64,000 nucleotides of DNA from Octopus sinensis. Taxonomy: Eukaryota. The notes under the pieces are model-generated. The model was given only the letters and a program-made list of their open reading frames with translations, did not search any database and was not told where the DNA came from. The DNA is taken from NCBI RefSeq assembly GCF_006345805.1, contig NC_043004.1:51026001-51090000 (forward strand). Reading direction: 5' to 3'. The number at the start of each line of letters is the position of its first letter. Position 1 is the stretch's first letter. The position numbers and the translations under genes were made by a program. Shown here one piece after another: positions 815-58,859 of the stretch.

Positions 815-943
815 TAATCAGCCGAAATTGCTAGGATGATCCGGTTCTTGACTGAAGATTGAAGGCTTCGAATGTCCCGACCGTGTTTTTTGTATCGTCT
901 TCTAAATGTTTTACGTTCTTGTCCCAGTTTGTATTTTTCTACA
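815..943 (+). repeat. 5'-truncated terminal repeat of family R1 (reversed-order hammerhead family)
   Basis: taatcagccGAAAttgct...tcttgaCTGAAGA matches 12361.. and 55510..; an inverted copy of its tail lies at ~1505-1566; flanked by (TA)n. Confidence 0.75.
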
Positions 944-1004
944 TATATATATATAAATATATATATATATATTATATATATATATATATATAATATATAT
1001 ATAT

Positions 1005-1458
1005 AATTTCAACGGATTTTACCGAAAAAGCATAGTGTTACTGATTTTAACCCACGCTGGTGGAAAGGGGAGAGCAGAAATTCTTCGCTTGCATATTTTG
1101 GGTTTGCTGGCACTGTTAGTTTCGAGCAGATCTTCAGAAGCGATAAGAAGCCGAAAGGGTATGCTCCCACTTTCAGTGTTTTCAAATCCAAACCAAGGAG
1201 TTCTGAGCTGATGATAGAAATGTCGAGTTGACTAATCTTGAAACGTACATTCTCAATAACCTTTGCATTTGATTTTTTAATGTCTTTACCCCCATACTTT
1301 CGTGAGTTGAATTGAGCAAACACTATATGAGAGAGATTTTCTTTAAGTATTAGAAATAGTTTAAAAAAAGTTTTTTTAGCTACTATTTCTAATGAGTTCA
1401 GTATGTGGCAAAGTAATTTATTTTACTAAGCCCTTTTATATAATGTAATAATTTGAAT
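1005..1458 (+). mobile_element. Non-coding HHR-bearing element (family Z2, PLE-associated/retrozyme-like)
   Basis: Near-identical inverted copy at 11386-12102; type I HHR at 1204-1255; inserted in (TA)n. Confidence 0.7.
1204..1255 (+). ncRNA. Type I hammerhead ribozyme (stem III mismatch)
   Basis: tgag-CTGATGA-(stem II aga/tct, gtc/gac)-GAAAC-gtac-ATT-ctca. The C-G pair of stem III is mutated to C-A here but intact in the 11674 copy. Confidence 0.7.
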
Positions 1459-1475
1459 ATATATATATATAATAT

Positions 1476-1506
<31 letters not shown>

Positions 1507-1563
1507 GTAGAAAAATACAAACTGGGACAAGAACGTAAAACATTTAGAAGACGATACAAAAAA

Positions 1564-1627
<64 letters not shown>

Positions 1628-1714
1628 TATATATAGATATATATATATATATATATATAATATATATTATATATATATCTATATATATATATATATATAT
1701 AATATATATATATA

Positions 1715-1759
<45 letters not shown>

Positions 1760-1776
1760 ATATATATATATATAGT

Positions 1777-2029
1777 GGAGACGCGTGGCTTAGTGGTTAG
1801 GGTGTCAGTATCATGATCGTAAGATTGTAGTTTCGATTCCTGAACGGGCGACACGTTGTGTTCTTGAGCAAAACACTTCATTTCACGTTGCCCTAGTCCA
1901 CTCAGCTGGCAAAAATGAGTAACGCTGCGATGGACTGGCGTCCCGTCCAGCTGGGGAACACATACGCCATAGAAACCGGGAAACCGGGCCCATGAGCCTG
2001 GCTAGGCTTTAAAAGGGTGCATTTATTTT
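1777..2029 (+). mobile_element. tRNA-derived SINE (family B)
   Basis: A box tggcttagtgg, B box gtttcgattcc, central tgttcttgagcaaaacac and gatggactggcgtcccgtccag motifs; related heads at 29494 and 34097. Confidence 0.8.
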
Positions 2030-2056
2030 ATCATATATAATATATATATATATATA

Positions 2057-2282
2057 GGGAGAGTTTACGAAAAAAAAAAACAAAAGACGAAAACAGGTGG
2101 TGTACAAAACAAACAGATGTATTAGTATAACGCTCAGGAATAGAAAAAAGTCTTTTACGTTTCGAGCCTACGCTCTTCTACAGAAAGGGACACAGAAAAA
2201 ACAAGGAGAGAAACAAGGATAGAAAAATGTGTGTAGTGGCTAACGATCTATCATGGCTTCTGACTCGGACAGACGCCATGAT
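2057..2282 (-). mobile_element. PLE-type terminal repeat fragment (family Z4) with minimal HHR-like motif at 2151-2188
   Basis: Minus strand reads ttt-CTGTAGA-a-gagc-gtag-gctc-GAAAC-GTA-aaaga; homologues at 37272, 38442 and 42428. Confidence 0.65.
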
Positions 2283-2300
2283 ATATATATATATATATAT

Positions 2301-2700
2301 GGCCCAGTGGTTATAGAATTGCGGTTTCGATTCCCAGACCGGGCGTTGTGAGTGTTTATTGAGCAAAATCACCTAAAGCTCCACGAGGCTCCGGCAGGGG
2401 GGGGCAAACACTGTTATACTCTTTCACCTCAACTTTCTCTCACTCTTTCTTCCTGCTTCTGTTGTACCTGTATTTCAAAGGGCCAATCTTGTCACATTCT
2501 GTGTCACGCTGAATCTCCCCATGAACTATGTTAAAGATACACGTGTTTGTGGAGTGCTCAACCTGAATCTTCCCGAGAACTACGATAAGGGTACACATGT
2601 CTGTGGAGTGCTCAACCACTTATACGTTAACTTCACGAGCAGGCTGTTCCGTTGATTGGATCAGCTGGAACTCTCGCCGTCGTAACCGACGGAGTGCCGT
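2301..2700 (+). mobile_element. tRNA-derived SINE (family C) with internal ~60-bp duplication
   Basis: ggcccagtgg A box, ggtttcgattccc B box; homologous to 18039-18385 (-). Confidence 0.8.
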
Positions 2701-2737
2701 AGTAACGTATATATGTGTGTGTGTGTGTGTGTGTGAA

Positions 2738-3200
2738 TTAAAATTGTTTGATTTGGCACCATGCAACTTAATAAAGTTTCGTAGTGTTCTTACAGAAACC
2801 TGGCGCGACGGGCTCAGTCCACACACCAACGAGTTGATGCCATCAGCTTTCACCCAAATGCCAAACCCTCTCATACTCATACGTAGTAGATACATACGCA
2901 TAGGCATCATCTGCGCTTACAAAACATCTGGTATACACATACCCATCGCCGGCCATGTCTGATGGCCCGCAAGTCCCTTCAAAGACCGCCCAGACAGCAA
3001 AATACCACCAGTTACGCATCTGTTGTCGCTGTAATATCGATCTCACTTCTAACCCCATGTGACTAGCCTTGAGCAATAGCAGCCCAGTTTGCAGGAACCA
3101 TCTTAAACTTCCTTCATCCCTCAGTTCTGTTAAAGAGCTACGTTTCTGTAGGAAGCCCACGAAACACTAAGTCGCATGGAACTAAATCAAATTATTTTAA
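2738..3200. repeat. ~460-bp element with ~60-bp imperfect terminal inverted repeats
   Basis: ttaaaattgtttgatttggcaccatgcaactta...cagaaac versus gtttctgtagg...gtcgcatggaactaaatcaaattattttaa. Confidence 0.55.
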
Positions 3201-7394: not shown

Positions 7395-8150
7395 TATACA
7401 CACATATGTACATACATACATACATATGTATATAGCTATGCATATATGGGTACAGGACGTCACAAAACGTAAACAACATGAAATACGAAAATAACGTTGG
7501 CTACGCAATGAACGAGAGAAAGAAATGGAAAAAAAGAAAGTAACATAAAGAACGACCCTTCATCAGTTTCGGCTGTCCTTCTACTCCTTATTTCGAGCAT
7601 CCCTATTCCTCCTTTACTCTCTCTCTCTCTCTCTCTCTCTCGTTGCTCACACTTGACCGTCGTCCATCTTTCCTTTCCTCACATGATCATCTTTCTGTTC
7701 TTTCAGTCTGTTGCGCAGTCCTGACACATTCCTACCTGTCTCCTCTCCTATATTTTCTCTTATCAAAGAATCTTCTTCCAGCGTTTGCTAGCTTACCTCA
7801 TCTGAGCCTAAAGGCCCTCTTTGTTTTTATATTCGTTTGGTTCGGTTTGTGTATGTCCTGTTTTTGTTACCAGCTTTGACCTTCCGCAAATCCCAAATTT
7901 TATTTTGGTTCGTAGGAGCAACTGCCTTCACAGTCTTATCTTGTCGTTCATTGCTCGAAATAGGGAGTAGAAGGGCAGCCGACAACTGATGAAGGGTCAT
8001 TTTTTATGTTACTTGTCTGTTTTCCATTTGTCTCTCGTTCTTTGCGTACCCAACTTTATTTTCGTATTTCATGCTGTTTACGTTTTGTGACGTCCTGTAT
8101 CCATATATGCATACCTATATACATACATATGTATGTATGTACAAATGTGT
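7395..8150. mobile_element. PLE-type element with ~200-bp inverted terminal repeats (family R2)
   Basis: ~7395-7600 is the reverse complement of ~7950-8150; the + arm carries the reversed-order HHR at 7922-7997. Confidence 0.7.
7922..7997 (+). ncRNA. Putative reversed-strand-order hammerhead ribozyme (family R2)
   Basis: ctgccttc-acag-tctta-TC|-ttgtcg-ttcatt-gctc-GAAA-taggg-agta-gaagggcag-c-cgacaa-CTGATGA-a-gggt. Stem I ttgtcg/cgacaa is a perfect 6 bp, stem II gggt/gctc, stem III tctta/taggg. Confidence 0.7.
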
Positions 8151-12102: not shown

Positions 12103-12337
12103 TATTGCCGCAAAGGCATTTACTTCAAAATACGCCAGCTAAGATAAGTTAAACTGTCTAAAGTCATAAGATACCCGCTGTTTTTGTCCTGTTATTACTA
12201 TTCTTGTTTTTACCATTATTGTTTTTTGTATTTATATTCGTGTGGCATCGTCCGTTTGTCTGTCCTTGTTTCGTATACATTCGATCCCTTTTCCCAAGAA
12301 ATCTAATGCTCGCAGCTTAGTTTTTCCTTGGGGCTGG

Positions 12338-12413
12338 CCGGATCGGAGCGATATCAGGATTAATCAGCCGAGATTGCTAGGATGATCCGGTTCCTGACTG
12401 AAGATTAGAGGCT
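12338..12413 (+). ncRNA. Putative reversed-strand-order hammerhead (family R1; GAAA>GAGA in this copy)
   Basis: ccggatc-gg-agcga-TA|-tcagga-ttaatc-agcc-GAGA-ttgct-aggat-gatccgg-t-tcctga-CTGAAGA-ttaga-ggct. Stem I tcagga/tcctga covaries with tcaaga/tcttga of the 55487 copy. Confidence 0.65.
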
Positions 12414-12502
12414 TCGAATGACCCGTCCGTTTTTTGTGTCGTCTCTTTGTGTGTTTTGCGTTCTTGTCCCATTTTGTATTTTTATATATAATTTTTATAT
12501 AT

Positions 12503-23352: not shown

Positions 23353-23416
23353 GTTGCACTGACGAACATGAAATGCATATTCTGCATTAAATGCGAAATC
23401 ACATGTGATATGTAAC
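23353..23416 (+). ncRNA. Type I hammerhead ribozyme in a PLE-type repeat (~23104-23542)
   Basis: gttgca-CTGACGA-acat..aatgca/tgcatt..atgc-GAAA-tcacatgtg-ATA|-tgtaac; a 35-bp inverted repeat lies upstream at 23104-23139/23248-23282. Confidence 0.8.
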
Positions 23417-30605: not shown

Positions 30606-32438
30606 GGGCACTGTCATGCCTTTGGATGTCATTTTCACGTCACACTTTTTCTCGTCCATCTTCGTTTCTTTCCGTATAATTTACGCAAAATCAAAAACGC
30701 GTGTAAATATATCAAATTAAAAAACGCAAATTATTTAGAATGTAAAAATCAAATATATCAAATTAAAAAACGCAAATTATTTAGAATGTAAAAATCAAAT
30801 ATATCAAATTAAAAAACGCAAATTATTTAGAATGTAAAAATCAAATATATCAAATTAAAAAACGCAAATTATTTAGAATGTAAAAATCAAATATATTTAT
30901 TCTTGCATTATTCATTATTGTTTTTAAAAAAGAAATCACACCAAAATCTGCACAAATGAACCCCCATGACCATCACCGCGATTACATACACCAATCAGAA
31001 TGACCACTGACCACCACGTGCGTAATTCAAACTTTGAAATTTATTCAGTTAGAAACTTTCAGTGTGATATCAACACGTGCTAAACAATTTTTAATATGGC
31101 TTTTGCATATCCAAGTTTAAGAGGAATTAGTCACCGCGATATTGCCGTCTCCACTGCTACAACAGCAGATAGCATTAATTGGCTTAAGAGACATGGCCTT
31201 TTGAATACCCAGAAAATATGTACATCGTGTGGAGCTAGCATGAGTGAAGTAGGGAAAAAAAGTATATCTGATGAAGTAATATGGTCGTGTGGAAGGCCTT
31301 GTAGAAAATCCGTGTCAATTAGAAAAGGAACATTTTTAGAAAATAGCAAATTGAAGTGTCAACAAATCATAGATATTTTGTTTTACTGGGCCAAAGAAGA
31401 TTTAGCAAAAGGAATAGGACAGGAATGTCATTTAGCAAATGTAGCCGTGACAGATTGGAGGAATTTTTGCCGCGATGTATGTGCAGAATATTATGTTGCA
31501 CAGAATATTAAGCTGGGAGGACCCAACAGAATCGTAGAGATAGATAAAACCGCGTTTGTTAGGAGAAAATATCATGTTGGCCATCGGGTTAAAACGCAGT
31601 GGGTGTTTGGTGCTTTAGAAAGAGATACCAGAAGATGTATTTTAGTGGCAGTGGAAGATCGGACAGCGGACACTCTTTTACAGATTATACGAGAGCGTAT
31701 ATTGCCTGGTACAACAATAATTTCCGACCTTTGGCGTTCGTATAATACACTCAGTCAACTAGGATACAGACATTTGACCGTGAATCATTCAATAAATTTT
31801 GTTGATCCGGTAACATTTGCCACAACCAACCACATAGAATGTTTATGGAAACACGTAAAGACTCGAAATAGAAGAGAATGTGGAACAGCCAGAAATTTAC
31901 TTCAGACCCATCTCATCGAATTCATGTGGCGCTATGAATTTAAGGACGATATATTCGGGAAGTTGATAGAGCAAATTCGACAGCTATATCCATGTGTTGA
32001 GTATAAGTATCAAGACAGAATGAGTATCGCATTTATTTTTAAACTTAACTTCAAGTTTATATTTTGATAATCTCACCGTTGAAAATGATATTTGAAAATA
32101 ATTTGCGTTTATTAATTTGATATATTTGATTTTTACATTCTAAATAATTTGCGTTTTTTAATTTGATATATTTGATTTTTACATTCTAAATAATTTGCGT
32201 TTTTTAATTTGATATATTTGATTTTTACATTCTAAATAATTTGCGTTTTTTAATTTGATATATTTGATTTTTACATTCTAAATAATTTGCGTTTTTTAAT
32301 TTGATATATTTACACGCGTTTTTGATTTTGCGTAAATTATACGGAAAGAAACGAAGATGGACGAGAAAAAGTGTGACGTCAAAATGACGTCAGATTTTTC
32401 TTCTTTCACTTCTGACATCCAAAGGCATGACAGTGCCC
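30606..32438 (+). mobile_element. Merlin DNA transposon with ~290-bp TIRs containing 46-bp tandem repeats
   Basis: Perfect terminal gggcactgtcatgcctttggatgtca / tgacatccaaaggcatgacagtgccc; 46-bp unit x4 at 30705-30888, inverted at ~32096-32310. Confidence 0.93.
31096..32067 (+). CDS. Merlin/ISXO2-like (IS1595-family) DDE transposase, 323 aa, uninterrupted
   Basis: N-terminal CxxC..C..C zinc ribbon, SIRKGTFLE, VEIDKT, WVFG, IISDLWRSY, HLTVNHS..FVDP, TNHIECLW, HLIEFMWR. Confidence 0.92.
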   Translation: MAFAYPSLRGISHRDIAVSTATTADSINWLKRHGLLNTQKICTSCGASMSEVGKKSISDEVIWSCGRPCRKSVSIRKGTFLENSKLKCQQIIDILFYWAKEDLAKGIGQECHLANVAVTDWRNFCRDVCAEYYVAQNIKLGGPNRIVEIDKTAFVRRKYHVGHRVKTQWVFGALERDTRRCILVAVEDRTADTLLQIIRERILPGTTIISDLWRSYNTLSQLGYRHLTVNHSINFVDPVTFATTNHIECLWKHVKTRNRRECGTARNLLQTHLIEFMWRYEFKDDIFGKLIEQIRQLYPCVEYKYQDRMSIAFIFKLNFKFIF

Positions 32439-52462: not shown

Positions 52463-52600
52463 TAATCAGTCGAAATTGCGAGGATGATCCGGTTCTTGAT
52501 TGAGGATAAAAGGTTTCGAATGACCCGTCCTTGCTTTTTTGTATCGTCTATCTAGTTGTCCGGATGTTTTGCGTTCTTGTCCCATTTTGTATTTTATTTT
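52463..52600 (+). repeat. 5'-truncated family R1 terminal repeat
   Basis: taatcagtcGAAAttgcg..gatccgg-t-tcttga-TTGAGGA; same start point as the 815 copy. Confidence 0.7.
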
Positions 52601-52619
52601 ATATATATATACATACAGC

Positions 52620-54876: not shown

Positions 54877-55476
54877 GGTGGGGAGCGGCGGGTGGGGTAG
54901 AATGACTGCCATTGAAGCTTTTATTAGTTTTTAGACCAAACTTTTGTTTTTCTTGGCTGCAATGATAGTTGTGTGGCATATCCGGGCCCACCTTTCTTCT
55001 CTCTCTTTCTCTTTCCCTCTCTCCTCCCCCCTCTCTCTCTCTCTCTCTCTCTTACATACCGTACTCATGGTCTCTGGCTCCCAGCCTGATTTGATATCTA
55101 TGTCGCTTTCACAGCCTCTCCTGCTTCAGTTATTCTCTACTTCTCTCTCTCTCGCTCTCTCTCTCTCTCTTTCTCTCTTTACAACGCACATGCAAACATG
55201 TGCGCGTGTGGGTACGTGTTTGTGTGAGCGCGCGCGCGTGTGTGCATGTGCTTGTGTGTGTTGTGTGTGTGTGTGTGTGTGTGTTGTGTTTGTGAGCGTA
55301 TATGTGTGTGTGAGCATGTGTATGTGCGTGTGTGTGTTCGTACGTGAGTGTGCGTGTGTGTGTATGCCTGTGAGCGTGTGCGTTGTTTATGTATGCATAC
55401 GTGCTGGCATGTACGTCTGTGTGTATGTATGTATGTATGTATGTATATATATATATATATTATATATATATATATT

Positions 55477-56410
55477 GGCGGGCTGGCCATATCGGAGCAA
55501 TCTCAAGATTAATCAGCCGAAATTGCTAAGATGATCTGGTTCTTGACTGATGACTGAGGGCTTCGAATGTCCGTCCTGTGGTTCTGTGTCGTCTCTGTGG
55601 TGTTTCATGTTCTTGTCCATGTCTGTAATTAATTTTACTGTTTACCTATATAATCGGCGGCTACGTATCCACAATTGTCCTTATACGATAAGTATATTTT
55701 TTTCTCTAGCTTTGATACGACTCTTAATCTGTCTCTTTTTCTCTCTCTCTCTCTCCTCCCTTATTCCACTTCCTTTCTTTCCCTCTCCATCCGTCCCCCC
55801 CCCTTCTACGTTTCTCTATCTCTCTCACCTCCAGCCCCCTCGATCTGTCTCTTTCTTCTCCTCCCTCGTCCACCTTCTCTCCTCTTTTCATCTGTCCCTT
55901 TCTCCGTCTTTTGTTCTCACGTGACAGCTAGCCGCTGTTGAGCGCTCTTTTCGTTTTCAGCAGCCGCAGAAGCAACACGTATTTGTCGTCTCCCCGTGCC
56001 TTTAGCACTTCACAGCCAGCCCCAACTCAAATCGTCCTGTCGAAGACCCTTGTCCTACGTCCTGGTTTTGTTTGTTGTTTATTTTTTATTTTTACCGTTA
56101 TTGTTTTTACGTTTTTGATTCTTATTGGTGTCACGTATTCTGTATTTGTTTGTGTACTTCGATCGTTTTCCGTCCTTTCGTTGTATACATTCGAAGCTTT
56201 TTCCAGGGGATCTAATGCGCTTGGCTTAGATTTCCCTTGGCGGCTGGCCATATCGGAGCAATCTCAAGATTAATCAGCCGAAATTGCTAAGATGATCTGG
56301 TTCGACTGATGACTGAGGGCTTCGAATGTCCCGTCCTGTGGTTCTTGTGTCGTCTCTGGTGGTGTTTCATGTTCTTGTCCATGTCTGTAATTAATTTTAC
56401 TGTTTACCTA
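55477..56410 (+). mobile_element. Non-coding element with ~170-bp direct terminal repeats, each holding a reversed-order HHR (family R1); duplicated at 57007-57938
   Basis: 55477-55650 matches 56238-56410; 761 nt between predicted cleavage sites 55502 and 56263; (TA)n flanks. Confidence 0.8.
55487..55562 (+). ncRNA. Putative reversed-strand-order hammerhead (family R1, intact core)
   Basis: ccatatc-gg-agcaa-TC|-tcaaga-ttaatc-agcc-GAAA-ttgct-aagat-gatctgg-t-tcttga-CTGATGA-ctgag-ggct; further copies at 56248-56321, 57018-57091 and 57774-57850. Confidence 0.7.
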
Positions 56411-56967
56411 TATATATATATATATATAGATATATATATATATATATAATATATATATACTTTATTCAAAAGCAGCAGAAATTCAATAAAACCTGTTACT
56501 CGGAGTTTCAACGTTCCCGTTCGTCGGCAGTTTTGCTAAGTAAAGCATATTACTCTACCCCTGGTATTTGAGTACTCTTTTTTCCACCTTGTTTCACATT
56601 TATGTGTTTACTCCGGTATATATATATATATATAATAACAAAGGGTAAAATTAATTAATTAAGAAGTAATCGTTCAAATGTTTCTAGTACCTTCGGATTG
56701 TTACAGAAAATCCATACTGATGAAGAATATGGTTAGTAAAGTATATATTTTTATATTCTTTATGTAAAAACCTATTCAGAACGCGCGTCTATGGATGATC
56801 GGATATTGATTGATTTTCGTTTGCTTTACTTTACTTTCTGCTATGTGATTAAACTTCAAGTATTTTGGGTTCTCTGGAAGTAGAAGAAATGGCTAAGAGT
56901 TTTGGCTGCTATTTCTGAACTTCGGTGTGTGGTGAGGCAATTCTTTGCTGAACCCTTTTATTAGTAT

Positions 56968-57003
<36 letters not shown>

Positions 57004-58020
57004 ATATGGCGGGCTGGCCATATCGGAGCAATTCAAGATTAATCAGCCGAAATTGCTAAGATGATCTGGTTCTTGACTGAGACTGAGGGCTTCGAATGTC
57101 CGTCCTGTGGTTCTTGTGTCGTCTCTGTGGTGTTTCATGTTCTTGTCCATGTCTGTAATTAATTTTACTGTTTACTATATAATCGGCGGCTACGTATCCA
57201 CAATTGTCCTTATACGTAAGTATATTTTTTTCTAGCTTTGATACGACTCTTAATCTGTCTCTTTTTCTCTCTCTCTCTCTCCTCCTTATTCCACTTCCTT
57301 TCTTTCCCTCTCCATCCGTCCCCCCCCCTTCTACGTTTCTCTATCTCTCTCACCTCCAGCCCCCTCGATCTGTCTCTTTCTTTCCTCCCTCGTCCACCTT
57401 CTCTCCCTTTTCATCTGTCCCTTTCTCCTGTCTTTTGTTCTCACGTGACAGCTAGCCGCTGTTGAGCGCTCTTTTCGTTTTCAGCAGCCGCAGAAGCACA
57501 CGTATTTGTTCGTCTCCCCGTGGCCTTTAGGCACAACTTCACAAGCCAGCCATACTCAAATCGTCTGTCGAAAGACCCTTGTCCTACGTCCTGGTTTGTT
57601 TTGTTGTTATTTTTTATTTTTACCGTTATGTTTTACGTTTTTGTATTCTTATTGGGTCACGTATTCTGTATTTTTGTTTGTGTACTTCGATCGTTTTCCG
57701 TCCTTTCGTTGTATACATTCAAGTTCTTCCAGGGGATCTAATGCGCTTGGCTTAGATTTCCCTGGCGGGCTGGCCATATCGGAGCAATCTCAAGATTAAT
57801 CAGCCGAAATTGCTATAGATGATCTGGTTCTTGACTGATGACTGAGGGCTTCGAATGTCCCGTCCTGTGGTTCTTGTGTCGTCTCTGTGGTGTTTCATGT
57901 TCTTGTCCATGTCTGTAATTAATTTTACTGTTTACCTATATATATATATATATATAGATATATATATATATATATAATATATATATACTTTATTCAAAAG
58001 CAGCAGAAATTCAATAAAAC

Positions 58021-58059
58021 CTGTTACTCGGAGTTTCAACGTTCCCGTTCGTCGGACAG
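58021..58059 (-). ncRNA. Minimal hammerhead, CCGACGA core variant (also 56493-56530; truncated + copy 19152-19183)
   Basis: Minus strand reads ctgt-CCGACGA-acg-ggaa-cgt-t-GAAAC-tccga-GTA|-acag. Confidence 0.65.
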
Positions 58060-58235
58060 TTTTGCTAAGTAAAGCATATTACTCTACCCCTGGTATTTGA
58101 GTACTCTTTTTTCCACCTTGTTTCACATTTATGTGTTTACTCCGGTATATAAATATATATAATAACAAAGGGTAAAATTAATTAATAAGAAGTAATCGTT
58201 CAAATGTTTCTAGTACCTTCGGATTGTTACAGAAA

Positions 58236-58324
58236 ATCCATACTGATGAAGAATATGGTTAGTAAAGTATATATTTTTATATTCTTTATGTAAAAACCTA
58301 ATTCAGAAACGCGCGTCTATGGAT
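58236..58324 (+). ncRNA. Type I hammerhead (family Z3; second copy 56710-56796)
   Basis: atccata-CTGATGA-agaat..ggtt/aacc..attca-GAAAC-gcgc-GTC|-tatggat; stem I is 7 bp. Confidence 0.85.
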
Positions 58325-58859
58325 GATCGGATATTGATTGATTTTCGTTTGCTTTACTTTCTGCCTATGTGATTAAACTTCAAGTATTTTGGGTTCTCTG
58401 GAAGTAGAAGAAATGGCTAAGAGTTTTGGCTGCTATTTCTGAACTTCGGTGTGTGGTGAGGCAATTCTTTGCTGAACCCTTTTATTAGTATATATATATA
58501 TATATATATATATACATACATATATATTTATACACACATACACATGTATTAATATCTATATCTGTGTTTGTTTTGATATTCATATTTTCCTAAACACACA
58601 TTAACTTTTACAAGGAAAACAGTGACAGTGGTTCGAGCAGTAGTGAGAATGCTCTATGTGTATTCTCTCTTTGTGCTTTGTTAGCATGTACTCACTGCTG
58701 TCAGCATGCTAAGGCAAATTCTGTTGTTACTGATATAAAAAAAAAATTGAAATATCACTGATGTTTCACTTAAACGTCTAGCTGAATAAAAATTCATTAT
58801 GTGCATCAGAATCAATATTCTGTGTATCGTACTTAATGTAAATACATCACGAAAATCCT

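What the first reader, a model, noticed from the sequence alone, without database searches (positions are those of the whole stretch)
55487..55562. Hammerhead ribozyme with its three strands in reversed cyclic order (family R1): candidate new topology
Seen: all HHR core parts are present, but in the order [III' agcaa-TC|-I' tcaaga]-ttaatc-[II' agcc-GAAA-III ttgct]-...-[I tcttga-CTGATGA-(5 nt)-II ggct]. Known: types I, II and III are circular permutations of one order (CUGANGA strand > GAAA strand > NUH strand). Here the order is NUH > GAAA > CUGANGA, which no permutation or circularisation restores. Support: the diverged copy at 12338-12413 has a compensatory stem I change (tcagga/tcctga versus tcaaga/tcttga). 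It also keeps an NUH triplet (ATA versus ATC), varies at free position N7 (CTGAAGA versus CTGATGA), and covaries in the stem III extension (ccggatc/gatccgg versus ccatatc/gatctgg). Inference: the 6-nt I'-II' linker bridges the neighbouring helices I and II. Only 1 nt separates the stem III extension from strand I, so the fold is either a cis pseudoknot or a strand-swapped dimer. A standard HHR descriptor or covariance-model search would be expected to miss it. I know of no description of this arrangement but cannot check the literature.
Basis: partly seen in the sequence, partly recalled or inferred. Interest (0 to 1): 0.95.

Follow-up and report, generated by a model that had tools for sequence, protein, structure and literature searches.

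The report
Rewired hammerhead ribozyme in animal retroelements
Thousands of small mobile elements in this animal genome carry what looks like a self-cutting hammerhead RNA whose parts are in a reversed order already described from environmental RNA, but which is also opened in the middle of its catalytic core in a way not found in the papers searched, and which may explain why a group of Penelope-like retrotransposons seemed to lack this ribozyme.

Summary
The hammerhead core and the reversed order (cleavage block > GAAA > CUGANGA) are real. That order is not new: it is 'type SGC' of Eckert et al. 2023. Its C11.1 pair fails in 30 of 65 copies, and that strand pairs about 110 nt upstream instead. 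The G10.1 strand lies 5' of the cleavage block (55481-55485). The core is therefore opened between A9 and G10.1, where two extra helices (P0, H1) form a four-way junction; Eckert assumed this block cannot be split. Two unrelated families in the same genome keep every helix with different sequence: one at window 7878-7998, and the 3' UTR of the autonomous Penelope-like element Naiad_Ovul, published as 'HHR_half_core'. The motif sits in a non-coding, roughly 780-nt head-to-tail retrozyme (over 7,000 exact motif hits) that inserts into (TA)n. 5' insertion ends pile up just 3' of the predicted cut, which suggests cleavage in vivo. No cleavage assay has been done, and monomer versus swapped dimer is open. 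Verdict: new variant of a known kind.

The parts
55481..55570 (+). Flagged ribozyme copy, subfamily A, 5'-truncated (no P0 5' strand, no H1)
55481..55485 (+). Stem II strand carrying G10.1 (55481); pairs with 55514-55518
   Evidence: 97.8% paired on 65 copies but almost invariant; best partner of C11.1 in all 7 subfamily representatives; same place, different sequence in two other families
55487..55493 (+).
   Evidence: 3 of 7 pairs change on both sides; correspondence inferred from PMC10085705
55496..55508 (+). Cleavage block: stem III' strand, U16.1-C17, predicted cut 3' of 55502, stem I' strand
   Evidence: 5' insertion ends cluster just 3' of this site
55514..55527 (+). G block: stem II strand ending in C11.1 (55518), G12-A13-A14-A15.1, stem III strand
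55541..55553 (+). Stem I strand and CUGAUGA (C3-A9); A9 is not followed by stem II
55556..55570 (+).
55475..56408 (+). Retrozyme insertion 1: about 1.2 head-to-tail units in a (TA)n run; the 3' end falls at the unit's internal TATATA (55647 in the first unit)
56187..56330 (+). Second, complete ribozyme (P0 5' strand from 56187, hairpin H1 about 56203-56240); 2-nt gap in stem I
57006..57936 (+). Retrozyme insertion 2 (duplicate of insertion 1): truncated ribozyme near 57008, complete one at 57710-57869
12272..12432 (+). Subfamily B ribozyme with P0 and H1; A14G
815..935 (+). Subfamily C copy beginning 7 nt 3' of the predicted cut
52463..52610 (+). Decayed copy beginning 7 nt 3' of the predicted cut
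7878..7998 (+). Unrelated family T with the same architecture: P0 7878-7883 with 7993-7998, H1 7884-7915, G10.1 7916, cut after 7940, C11.1 7956, C3 7986
   Evidence: found by the descriptor

Best explanation
The motif is a hammerhead ribozyme in the reversed (SGC/CSG) cyclic order that is opened between A9 and G10.1. From 5' to 3': P0 - hairpin H1 - stem II (G10.1 strand) - P4 - cleavage block - short linker - G block - P4' - stem I + CUGANGA - P0'. The chain leaves the core after A9 into P0 and re-enters at G10.1 from H1, with 0-2 unpaired bases at each step. P0, H1, stem II and the core stack thus meet as a four-way junction (inferred). It sits once per unit in a non-coding retrozyme of about 760-875 nt. 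Proposed cycle: a tandem copy is transcribed; each ribozyme cuts after C17, releasing unit-length RNA that may circularise; a Penelope-like RT/endonuclease supplied in trans, most likely a Naiad, nicks (TA)n and starts reverse transcription at an internal UAUAUA about 110-146 nt 3' of the cut. A cut linear template gives short insertions that end at the cut. An uncut or circular template gives longer, multi-unit insertions. Shown here: sequence, helices, covariation, copy structure and end distribution. Inferred: catalysis, junction geometry, circles, and the identity of the helper.
For: Fold: 93.8% of cells paired on 65 copies, 13 pairs with two-sided change, covariation above all 500 shuffles and all slid controls. 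RNAalifold independently recovers P0, P4 and stem III. Subfamily H adds a C-G to U-A change in stem III and another P0 sequence. 139 of 161 core sites have a 5-bp G-initiated partner for C11.1 upstream of the cleavage block; 2 of 161 have one 0-2 nt after A9. Family T has every helix with unrelated sequence, 0-nt linkers at the junction, and within-family covariation including 2 stem II pairs (0 of 500 shuffles as high on the covariation score). The published Naiad_Ovul and Naiad_Obim 3' UTRs show the same order with a third set of stems (read by eye); their 14-mer has 507 exact hits in this genome against 14 control, and a second Naiad-like subfamily has a 7-bp P0 directly after A9. Core: 11 of 13 core positions are identical in 7 subfamily majorities while 46 of 134 other columns vary; N7 and H17 vary freely. 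Cleavage footprint (0 = boundary exactly at the cut): 21 of the first 100 genome matches start at 0..+7 (6 exactly at 0) and 3 at -8..-1 (counted by eye), versus 6-8 of 100 in +14..+27. 13 of 48 copies end at -4..+7 and none at -69..-20. Element: unit lengths 761-787 (A), 825-875 (C), 828 (E), 769-795 (G); fixed 3' end in TA runs and variable 5' ends; no ORF common to the unit. Naiads prefer (TA)n and were reported to lack canonical HHRs (PMC8557442). PLE RT starts internally (PMC11167929).
Against: No cleavage assay exists. Within family R1 the new stem II is nearly invariant (1 two-sided cell), so its support comes from the other families. G10.1 is A in the G2 majority (4 of 65 copies) and G12 is A in the G majority (10 of 65 copies; CpG decay or an inactive branch). 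The Naiad copies show no within-family covariation (487 of 500 shuffles as high), and their proximal P0 is only 65% paired. Single-sequence MFE folds never give the catalytic form, which is pseudoknotted, and give competing helices; RNAalifold pairs the G10.1 strand inside H1 instead. The end pile-up is broader than the cut: in 30 unselected loci 9 ends lay at +5..+19 and none at 0..+4, and 12 of the 21 ends lie at a TA microhomology. Only about 1 of 30 Naiad copies ends near its cut. For the Anolis PLE, HHR cleavage was not needed for insertion in vitro and required protein. No sequence homology links R1 to Naiad, and no autonomous element carrying the R1 ribozyme was found within 1.5-kb flanks. 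Alignment A2 was picked to favour near-consensus copies.
Confidence: 0.76

Rival explanations
1. Same pairings, but active only as a strand-swapped dimer. The cleavage and G blocks of one unit meet the stem II strand and CUGANGA strand of a neighbouring unit, so only tandem transcripts are cut. This is a sub-case of the best explanation; the confidence given is conditional on activity.
For: P4 is 1 nt from distal stems I and II at one end and 0-3 nt from stem III at the other. About 14 stacked layers must be spanned by 7 bp plus linkers (my estimate from A-form rise; not modelled). Units are tandem. Dimeric hammerheads are known in newt/axolotl repeats and viroids (PMC7229834; PMC6155905).
Against: Fraying of the last stem III pairs lengthens the linkers to 2-3 and 6 nt, as in subfamily E, Naiad and T, which may allow a monomer. 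Eckert noted the same geometric puzzle in SGC RNAs that cleaved during transcription.
Confidence: 0.4
2. One reading: an ordinary type-SGC hammerhead whose stem II is AGCC with the 3' GGCT, with a 5-nt insert after A9.
For: The 4-bp helix can form in subfamilies A-D. It may form in 5'-truncated copies such as 55477, where P0 has no partner.
Against: It fails in E, G and H: C11.1 unpaired in 30 of 65 copies, no covariation. That strand covaries with the upstream P0 strand instead. There is no such helix in the Naiad or T consensus. Known alignments allow at most 1-2 nt there (PMC10085705).
Confidence: 0.07
3. A conserved but non-cleaving (or strictly protein-dependent) structure, kept as a binding site for the PLE protein. 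The 5' end cluster comes from TA microhomology or from a transcription start.
For: HHR cleavage was dispensable and protein-assisted in the Anolis PLE. Many ends lie at TTAA. A subfamily majority has G12A. There is no end cluster for Naiad.
Against: Three unrelated families conserve exactly the catalytic nucleotides and let N7 and H17 vary. Several ends fall exactly at the cut without a TA run, and end density drops sharply 5' of it.
Confidence: 0.14
4. A chance arrangement, an assembly artefact, or another ribozyme class (for example HDV-like, suggested by GGCUGGCC...CGAAUG).
For: The window copies carry indels and a 1.5-kb duplication.
Against: 7,042 and 7,281 exact motif hits against 4 and 0 control; 0 descriptor hits in shuffles; no Rfam match. 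I could not fit HDV P1.1/P3/L3 by eye.
Confidence: 0.02

Closest known systems
Type-SGC and type-CSG non-circularly permuted hammerheads (Eckert et al. 2023, PMC10085705)
   Same: Same reversed cyclic order of blocks, same core, a short linker from stem I' to stem II', and a helix joining distal stems I and II (P4 here).
   Different: There the CUGANGA block is contiguous with stem II (descriptor requires CUGAUGA(U)G); here it is split and P0/H1 are inserted. P4 is tied to both strands of stem III. Their SGC examples came from metatranscriptomes, with none in genomes of known organisms; this one is a high-copy animal repeat.
Metazoan non-LTR retrozymes (PMC7229834; bioRxiv 10.64898/2026.07.22.740005)
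   Same: Non-coding head-to-tail repeats with one hammerhead per unit, thought to be mobilised by Penelope-like elements.
   Different: Those carry type I hammerheads in units of about 150-450 nt; these units are 760-875 nt with a permuted, split-core ribozyme. Circular RNA was not shown here.
Naiad Penelope-like elements (Craig et al. 2021, PMC8557442)
   Same: (TA)n preference, tandem/inverted 5'-truncated copies, and the same ribozyme architecture 80-105 nt from the 3' end (Naiad_Ovul, Naiad_Obim).
   Different: R1 has no RT or GIY-YIG ORF and no sequence similarity to the Naiad ribozyme beyond the core. The paper recorded only an 'HHR_half_core'.
Pseudoknot (PK) hammerhead, pistol-like (PMC11300833)
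   Same: A hammerhead core with an extra helix and pseudoknot.
   Different: There A9-G10.1 stay adjacent and the pseudoknot forms in the loop of a 1-bp stem II; the strand order is not reversed in this way.
Hammerheads with one extra base after A9
   Same: They show that the A9-G10.1 step tolerates a bulged insertion (the SGC descriptor includes it; De la Pena and Flores 2001, title seen, content recalled).
   Different: One base there; two helices and the RNA's 5' and 3' ends here.

Membership tests
Hammerhead ribozyme | Core C3 U4 G5 A6 N7 G8 A9 / G12 A13 A14 A15.1 / U16.1 H17 | tested here: met
   (G12 is A in 10 of 65 copies, other core positions 60-65 of 65)
Hammerhead ribozyme | Stems I and III flanking the core, with covariation | tested here: met
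   (stem I 4 of 6 pairs two-sided; stem III one-sided only in A2, two-sided in subfamily H)
Hammerhead ribozyme | Stem II closed by G10.1-C11.1 | tested here: met
   met only with the 5' strand
Hammerhead ribozyme | Site-specific, core-dependent self-cleavage after H17 | not testable with these tools
   indirect only: 5' end clustering
Types I, II, III (circular permutations) | Cyclic order CUGANGA > GAAA > NUH | tested here: not met
   Rfam 0 hits
Type SGC (Eckert 2023) | Order cleavage block > G block > C block | tested here: met
Type SGC (Eckert 2023) | CUGANGA followed within 0-2 nt by G10.1 and stem II | tested here: not met
Type SGC (Eckert 2023) | Helix joining the distal sides of stems I and II | tested here: met
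   P4
Non-LTR retrozyme | Non-coding head-to-tail units, one ribozyme per unit, dispersed copies | tested here: met
Non-LTR retrozyme | Type I hammerhead | tested here: not met
Non-LTR retrozyme | Expressed as unit-length linear and circular RNA | tested here: inconclusive
   only contigs from runs guessed to be RNA
Naiad / Penelope-like element | RT plus GIY-YIG ORF in the element | tested here: not met
   no ORF in the unit
Naiad / Penelope-like element | (TA)n targeting, fixed 3' tail, 5' truncation, partial tandem and inverted copies | tested here: met
Naiad / Penelope-like element | Mobilisation by the Naiad protein | not testable with these tools
   inferred from the shared ribozyme architecture and target

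The most novel reading that the evidence does not exclude
A seventh natural hammerhead connectivity: the catalytic core is cut open between A9 and G10.1 and plugged into a four-way junction. It has spread through at least three unrelated retroelement families of an animal genome, including an autonomous Naiad, and processes their RNA in vivo, possibly as an obligate swapped dimer that restricts cutting to tandem transcripts. Naiads, reported to lack canonical hammerheads, would then commonly carry non-circularly permuted ones (type CSG in nematodes, the split form in octopuses).
Probability: 0.62. Interest if true: 0.88.

Novelty: new variant of a known kind. Interest (0 to 1): 0.8.

Why it matters
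If active, it breaks the published rule that the CUGANGA strand and stem II must be contiguous, and adds a connectivity outside the six listed permutations. It shows a place where whole domains can be inserted into the core, which matters for ribozyme structure and for switch design. It moves non-circular permutations from unassigned metatranscriptome contigs into an animal genome, with thousands of dated copies and three independent sequence solutions. It makes an open point of retroelement biology testable: Naiad elements were said to lack canonical hammerheads, and eight were flagged as having only half a core, but the published octopus consensus fits this fold and six nematode ones fit type CSG. 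Standard descriptors and Rfam miss all of these, so ribozyme counts in invertebrate genomes may be far too low.

Tried and rejected
Rfam at gathering thresholds on the whole window: 0 hits.

Alternative stems II using the bases right after A9 were checked by eye and fail in B, E or G, or use G8/A9. HDV-like and PK/pistol-like folds did not fit (by eye).

Pattern scans of metagenome contigs (53 loci) and viral contigs (1 locus): 0 of 54 form stems I and III or have the 5' stem II strand, so all are chance.

No RNA holder is listed on record. Contigs of three runs only guessed to be RNA cover 29, 29 and 20 of 29 bins of the unit and join unit end to unit start, which tandem DNA also does, so this is no evidence on expression or circles. 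It did reveal subfamily H.

An autonomous element carrying the R1 ribozyme was not found in 1.5-kb flanks. Pfam named none of 4 short RT-like fragments near Naiad 3' UTRs; the Naiad label rests on by-eye identity with the published consensus.

Within-family covariation for the Naiad ribozyme is absent. Units within one insertion differ by 1.2 substitutions against 2.6 between insertions, which does not separate circular from tandem-linear templates.

The covariance model could not be run on the whole genome; on the window it found only the 7 R1 copies and not family T. No earlier findings of this scan matched. Weinberg 2015 (PMC4509812), cited for hammerhead variants with extra helices, is not held; bioRxiv supplements were closed.

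Full report
Observation. The window holds seven copies of the family. Rfam finds nothing in the window. The window lies in a 2.72-Gb, 13,516-contig genome rich in microsatellites.

The reversed order is known. Eckert et al. 2023 (PMC10085705; I read main-text parts 1-6 of 8, plus a supplement term search and supplement parts 1 and 8 of 42) divide the hammerhead into blocks C, G and S, list six orders, and validate type SGC by cleavage and disrupt-rescue. They assume block C (stem I, CUGANGA, stem II) cannot be interrupted by more than 1-2 nt. They report no SGC example in genomes of known organisms, and 'Octopus' and 'Mollusca' do not occur in their supplement text.

The element. Genome searches gave 40-45 scored matches each out of 858-3,128 candidates. 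Exact motifs give 7,042 and 7,281 hits against 4 and 0 control; subfamily H alone gives 1,024. Copies end at a fixed 3' point running into (TA)n, are variably 5'-truncated, and are often head-to-tail: units of 761-787 nt in A, 825-875 in C, 828 in E and 769-795 in G. In A the 3' end lies at an internal TATATA 146 nt after the predicted cut. No common ORF is present. This is the anatomy of a non-autonomous Penelope-type retrozyme (PMC7229834, passages; bioRxiv 10.64898/2026.07.22.740005, part 1 of 5 and passages; PMC11167929, parts 1-2 of 4).

The fold needs correcting. 170 distinct full-length copies clustered into subfamilies A, B, C, D, E, G and G2. I aligned 65 of them, chosen nearest to each cluster majority and without large gaps (A2). 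P0 encloses a long hairpin H1, which is followed within 0-2 nt by GGCTG, the complement of the CAGCC that ends in C11.1. The full structure (P0, H1, 5' stem II, P4, III, I) is 93.8% paired with 13 two-sided pairs, above all 500 shuffles and all slid controls; related sequences inflate such shuffle tests. The 5' stem II itself barely varies in this family.

Independent families supply the missing covariation. My descriptor (stems I and III plus core, no sequence from R1) found 161 sites in 260 loci: 139 with an upstream G10.1 strand, 2 with a canonical one after A9, and 0 sites in 10.5 Mb of shuffles. The scan also found an unrelated family T at window 7878-7998 (2,202 candidates). On 33 of its 42 extracted copies (duplicates and deleted copies left out) the same seven helices are 88.9% paired with 13 two-sided pairs, two of them in stem II, and P0, H1 and stem II meet the core with no unpaired bases. 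Craig et al. 2021 (PMC8557442; passages; supplement rows, part 24 of 59 and 43 sequence ends) say that Naiads favour (TA)n, lack canonical hammerheads, and in eight cases have a 'half core', among them Naiad_Ovul. Read by eye, the Naiad_Ovul and Naiad_Obim 3' UTRs have the same order with a third set of stems (stem II GACAC/GTGTC, stem I CTGCCC/GGGCAG). Copies in this genome confirm it, but on 24 of 30 of them there is no within-family covariation and P0 is weak; a second subfamily has a 7-bp P0 right after A9.

Structural reading (inference). Joining A9 to G10.1 and cutting between stem III and P4 turns this RNA into type CSG, so it is a circular permutation of the SGC/CSG/GCS class opened inside block C. 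The natural one-base bulge at that step makes it a plausible exit point. P0 stacked on H1, and stem II stacked on the core, would form a four-way junction whose exchanging strands are A9-to-P0 and H1-to-G10.1. P4 links distal stems I and II to distal stem III with short linkers, a tight fit for a monomer; a swapped dimer between tandem units is a real alternative. No 3D model was built.

Evidence for cutting in vivo. With 0 meaning a boundary exactly at the cut: 21 of the first 100 listed matches begin at 0..+7 (6 at 0, 3 at +2, 12 at +5..+7) and 3 at -8..-1 (counted by eye). In a control window at +14..+27, 6 truncations and 2 internal deletions were seen in 100 (Fisher p about 1e-4). Of 48 copies scored from 60 loci, 13 end at -4..+7, 3 at -19..-10, none at -69..-20 and 32 further upstream. 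A separate set of 30 unselected loci gave 9 ends at +5..+19, none at 0..+4, 2 at -36 and -19, and 19 beyond -70. The cluster therefore runs from the cut to about +13 rather than sitting on it, and part of it coincides with TA microhomology. The sharp fall 5' of the cut fits reverse transcription of a cleaved RNA with a few bases lost at joining. Naiad copies show no such cluster. Core conservation agrees: 11 of 13 core positions are fixed across 7 subfamily majorities while N7 and H17 vary, the exceptions being G12A in G and G10.1A in G2.

Literature status. Ten searches found only Eckert 2023 for 'type-SGC', nothing for 'between A9 and G10.1', and no paper linking Naiads or cephalopods to permuted hammerheads. 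Passages of PMC3088659, PMC6155905, PMC13725137, PMC10162972, PMC6962438 and bioRxiv 10.64898/2026.09.16.752053, and parts 1-2 of 6 of PMC11300833, describe no such form. Most subscription papers, Weinberg 2015 and bioRxiv supplements were not visible.

Verdict. The feature is real. The reversed order is already known; the split-core connectivity and the animal retroelement setting appear undescribed. New variant of a known kind, interest 0.8, awaiting a cleavage assay.

Noticed in passing
PMC8557442 supplement, 3' ends of Naiad-1/-2/-3_Nbra, Naiad_Hcon, Naiad_Hpol, Naiad_Asuum: Read by eye, six nematode Naiad ends (of 43 ends seen) hold complete type-CSG hammerheads with a long helix joining distal stems I and II; Eckert 2023 had only two natural CSG sequences.
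   Followed up: partly
PMC8557442 supplement, 3' end of Naiad_Ptep and some Darwinula Naiads: GAAA lies upstream of CUGANGA with plausible stems I and III but a weak stem II; possibly further SGC-order forms.
   Followed up: no
PMC8557442 supplement, bivalve and hemichordate Naiad 3' ends: Mussel/clam ends share a hairpin resembling twister P4/L4; oyster and hemichordate ends share an HDV-like-looking motif. Both resemblances are recalled, not tested.
   Followed up: no
window 56409-57005 and 57937-58490: A roughly 600-nt segment between the retrozyme insertions carries a canonical-order (type I) hammerhead at about 58236-58315, with a gapped copy near 56710-56790. The whole 1.5-kb block is duplicated at about 95% identity with many indels, possibly an assembly artefact.
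   Followed up: partly
window 7440-7600 (- strand): Inverted, 5'-truncated second copy of family T next to the 7878-7998 copy, a typical Penelope-like arrangement.
   Followed up: no
window about 21087 (+), 23358 (+), 13347 (-): Further canonical-order hammerhead candidates from the loose descriptor; the one near 23358 lies beside a Penelope-like RT fragment on the minus strand.
   Followed up: no
window about 30625-32391: A 327-codon open frame from 31084 that looks like a DDE-type transposase, between 272-nt inverted repeats; label by eye.
   Followed up: no
L186, L189, L191, L195, L198-L200: Some subfamily H copies carry a duplicated 3' arm of hairpin H1 upstream of the ribozyme, giving alternative H1 pairings.
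   Followed up: no
L008, L020, L037/L054: Copies of different subfamilies are inserted tail-to-tail in the same TA run, so new insertions target the TA tails of old ones.
   Followed up: no
L318:2530 (+): One GC-rich descriptor hit in SGC order that belongs to none of the three families; may be chance.
   Followed up: no
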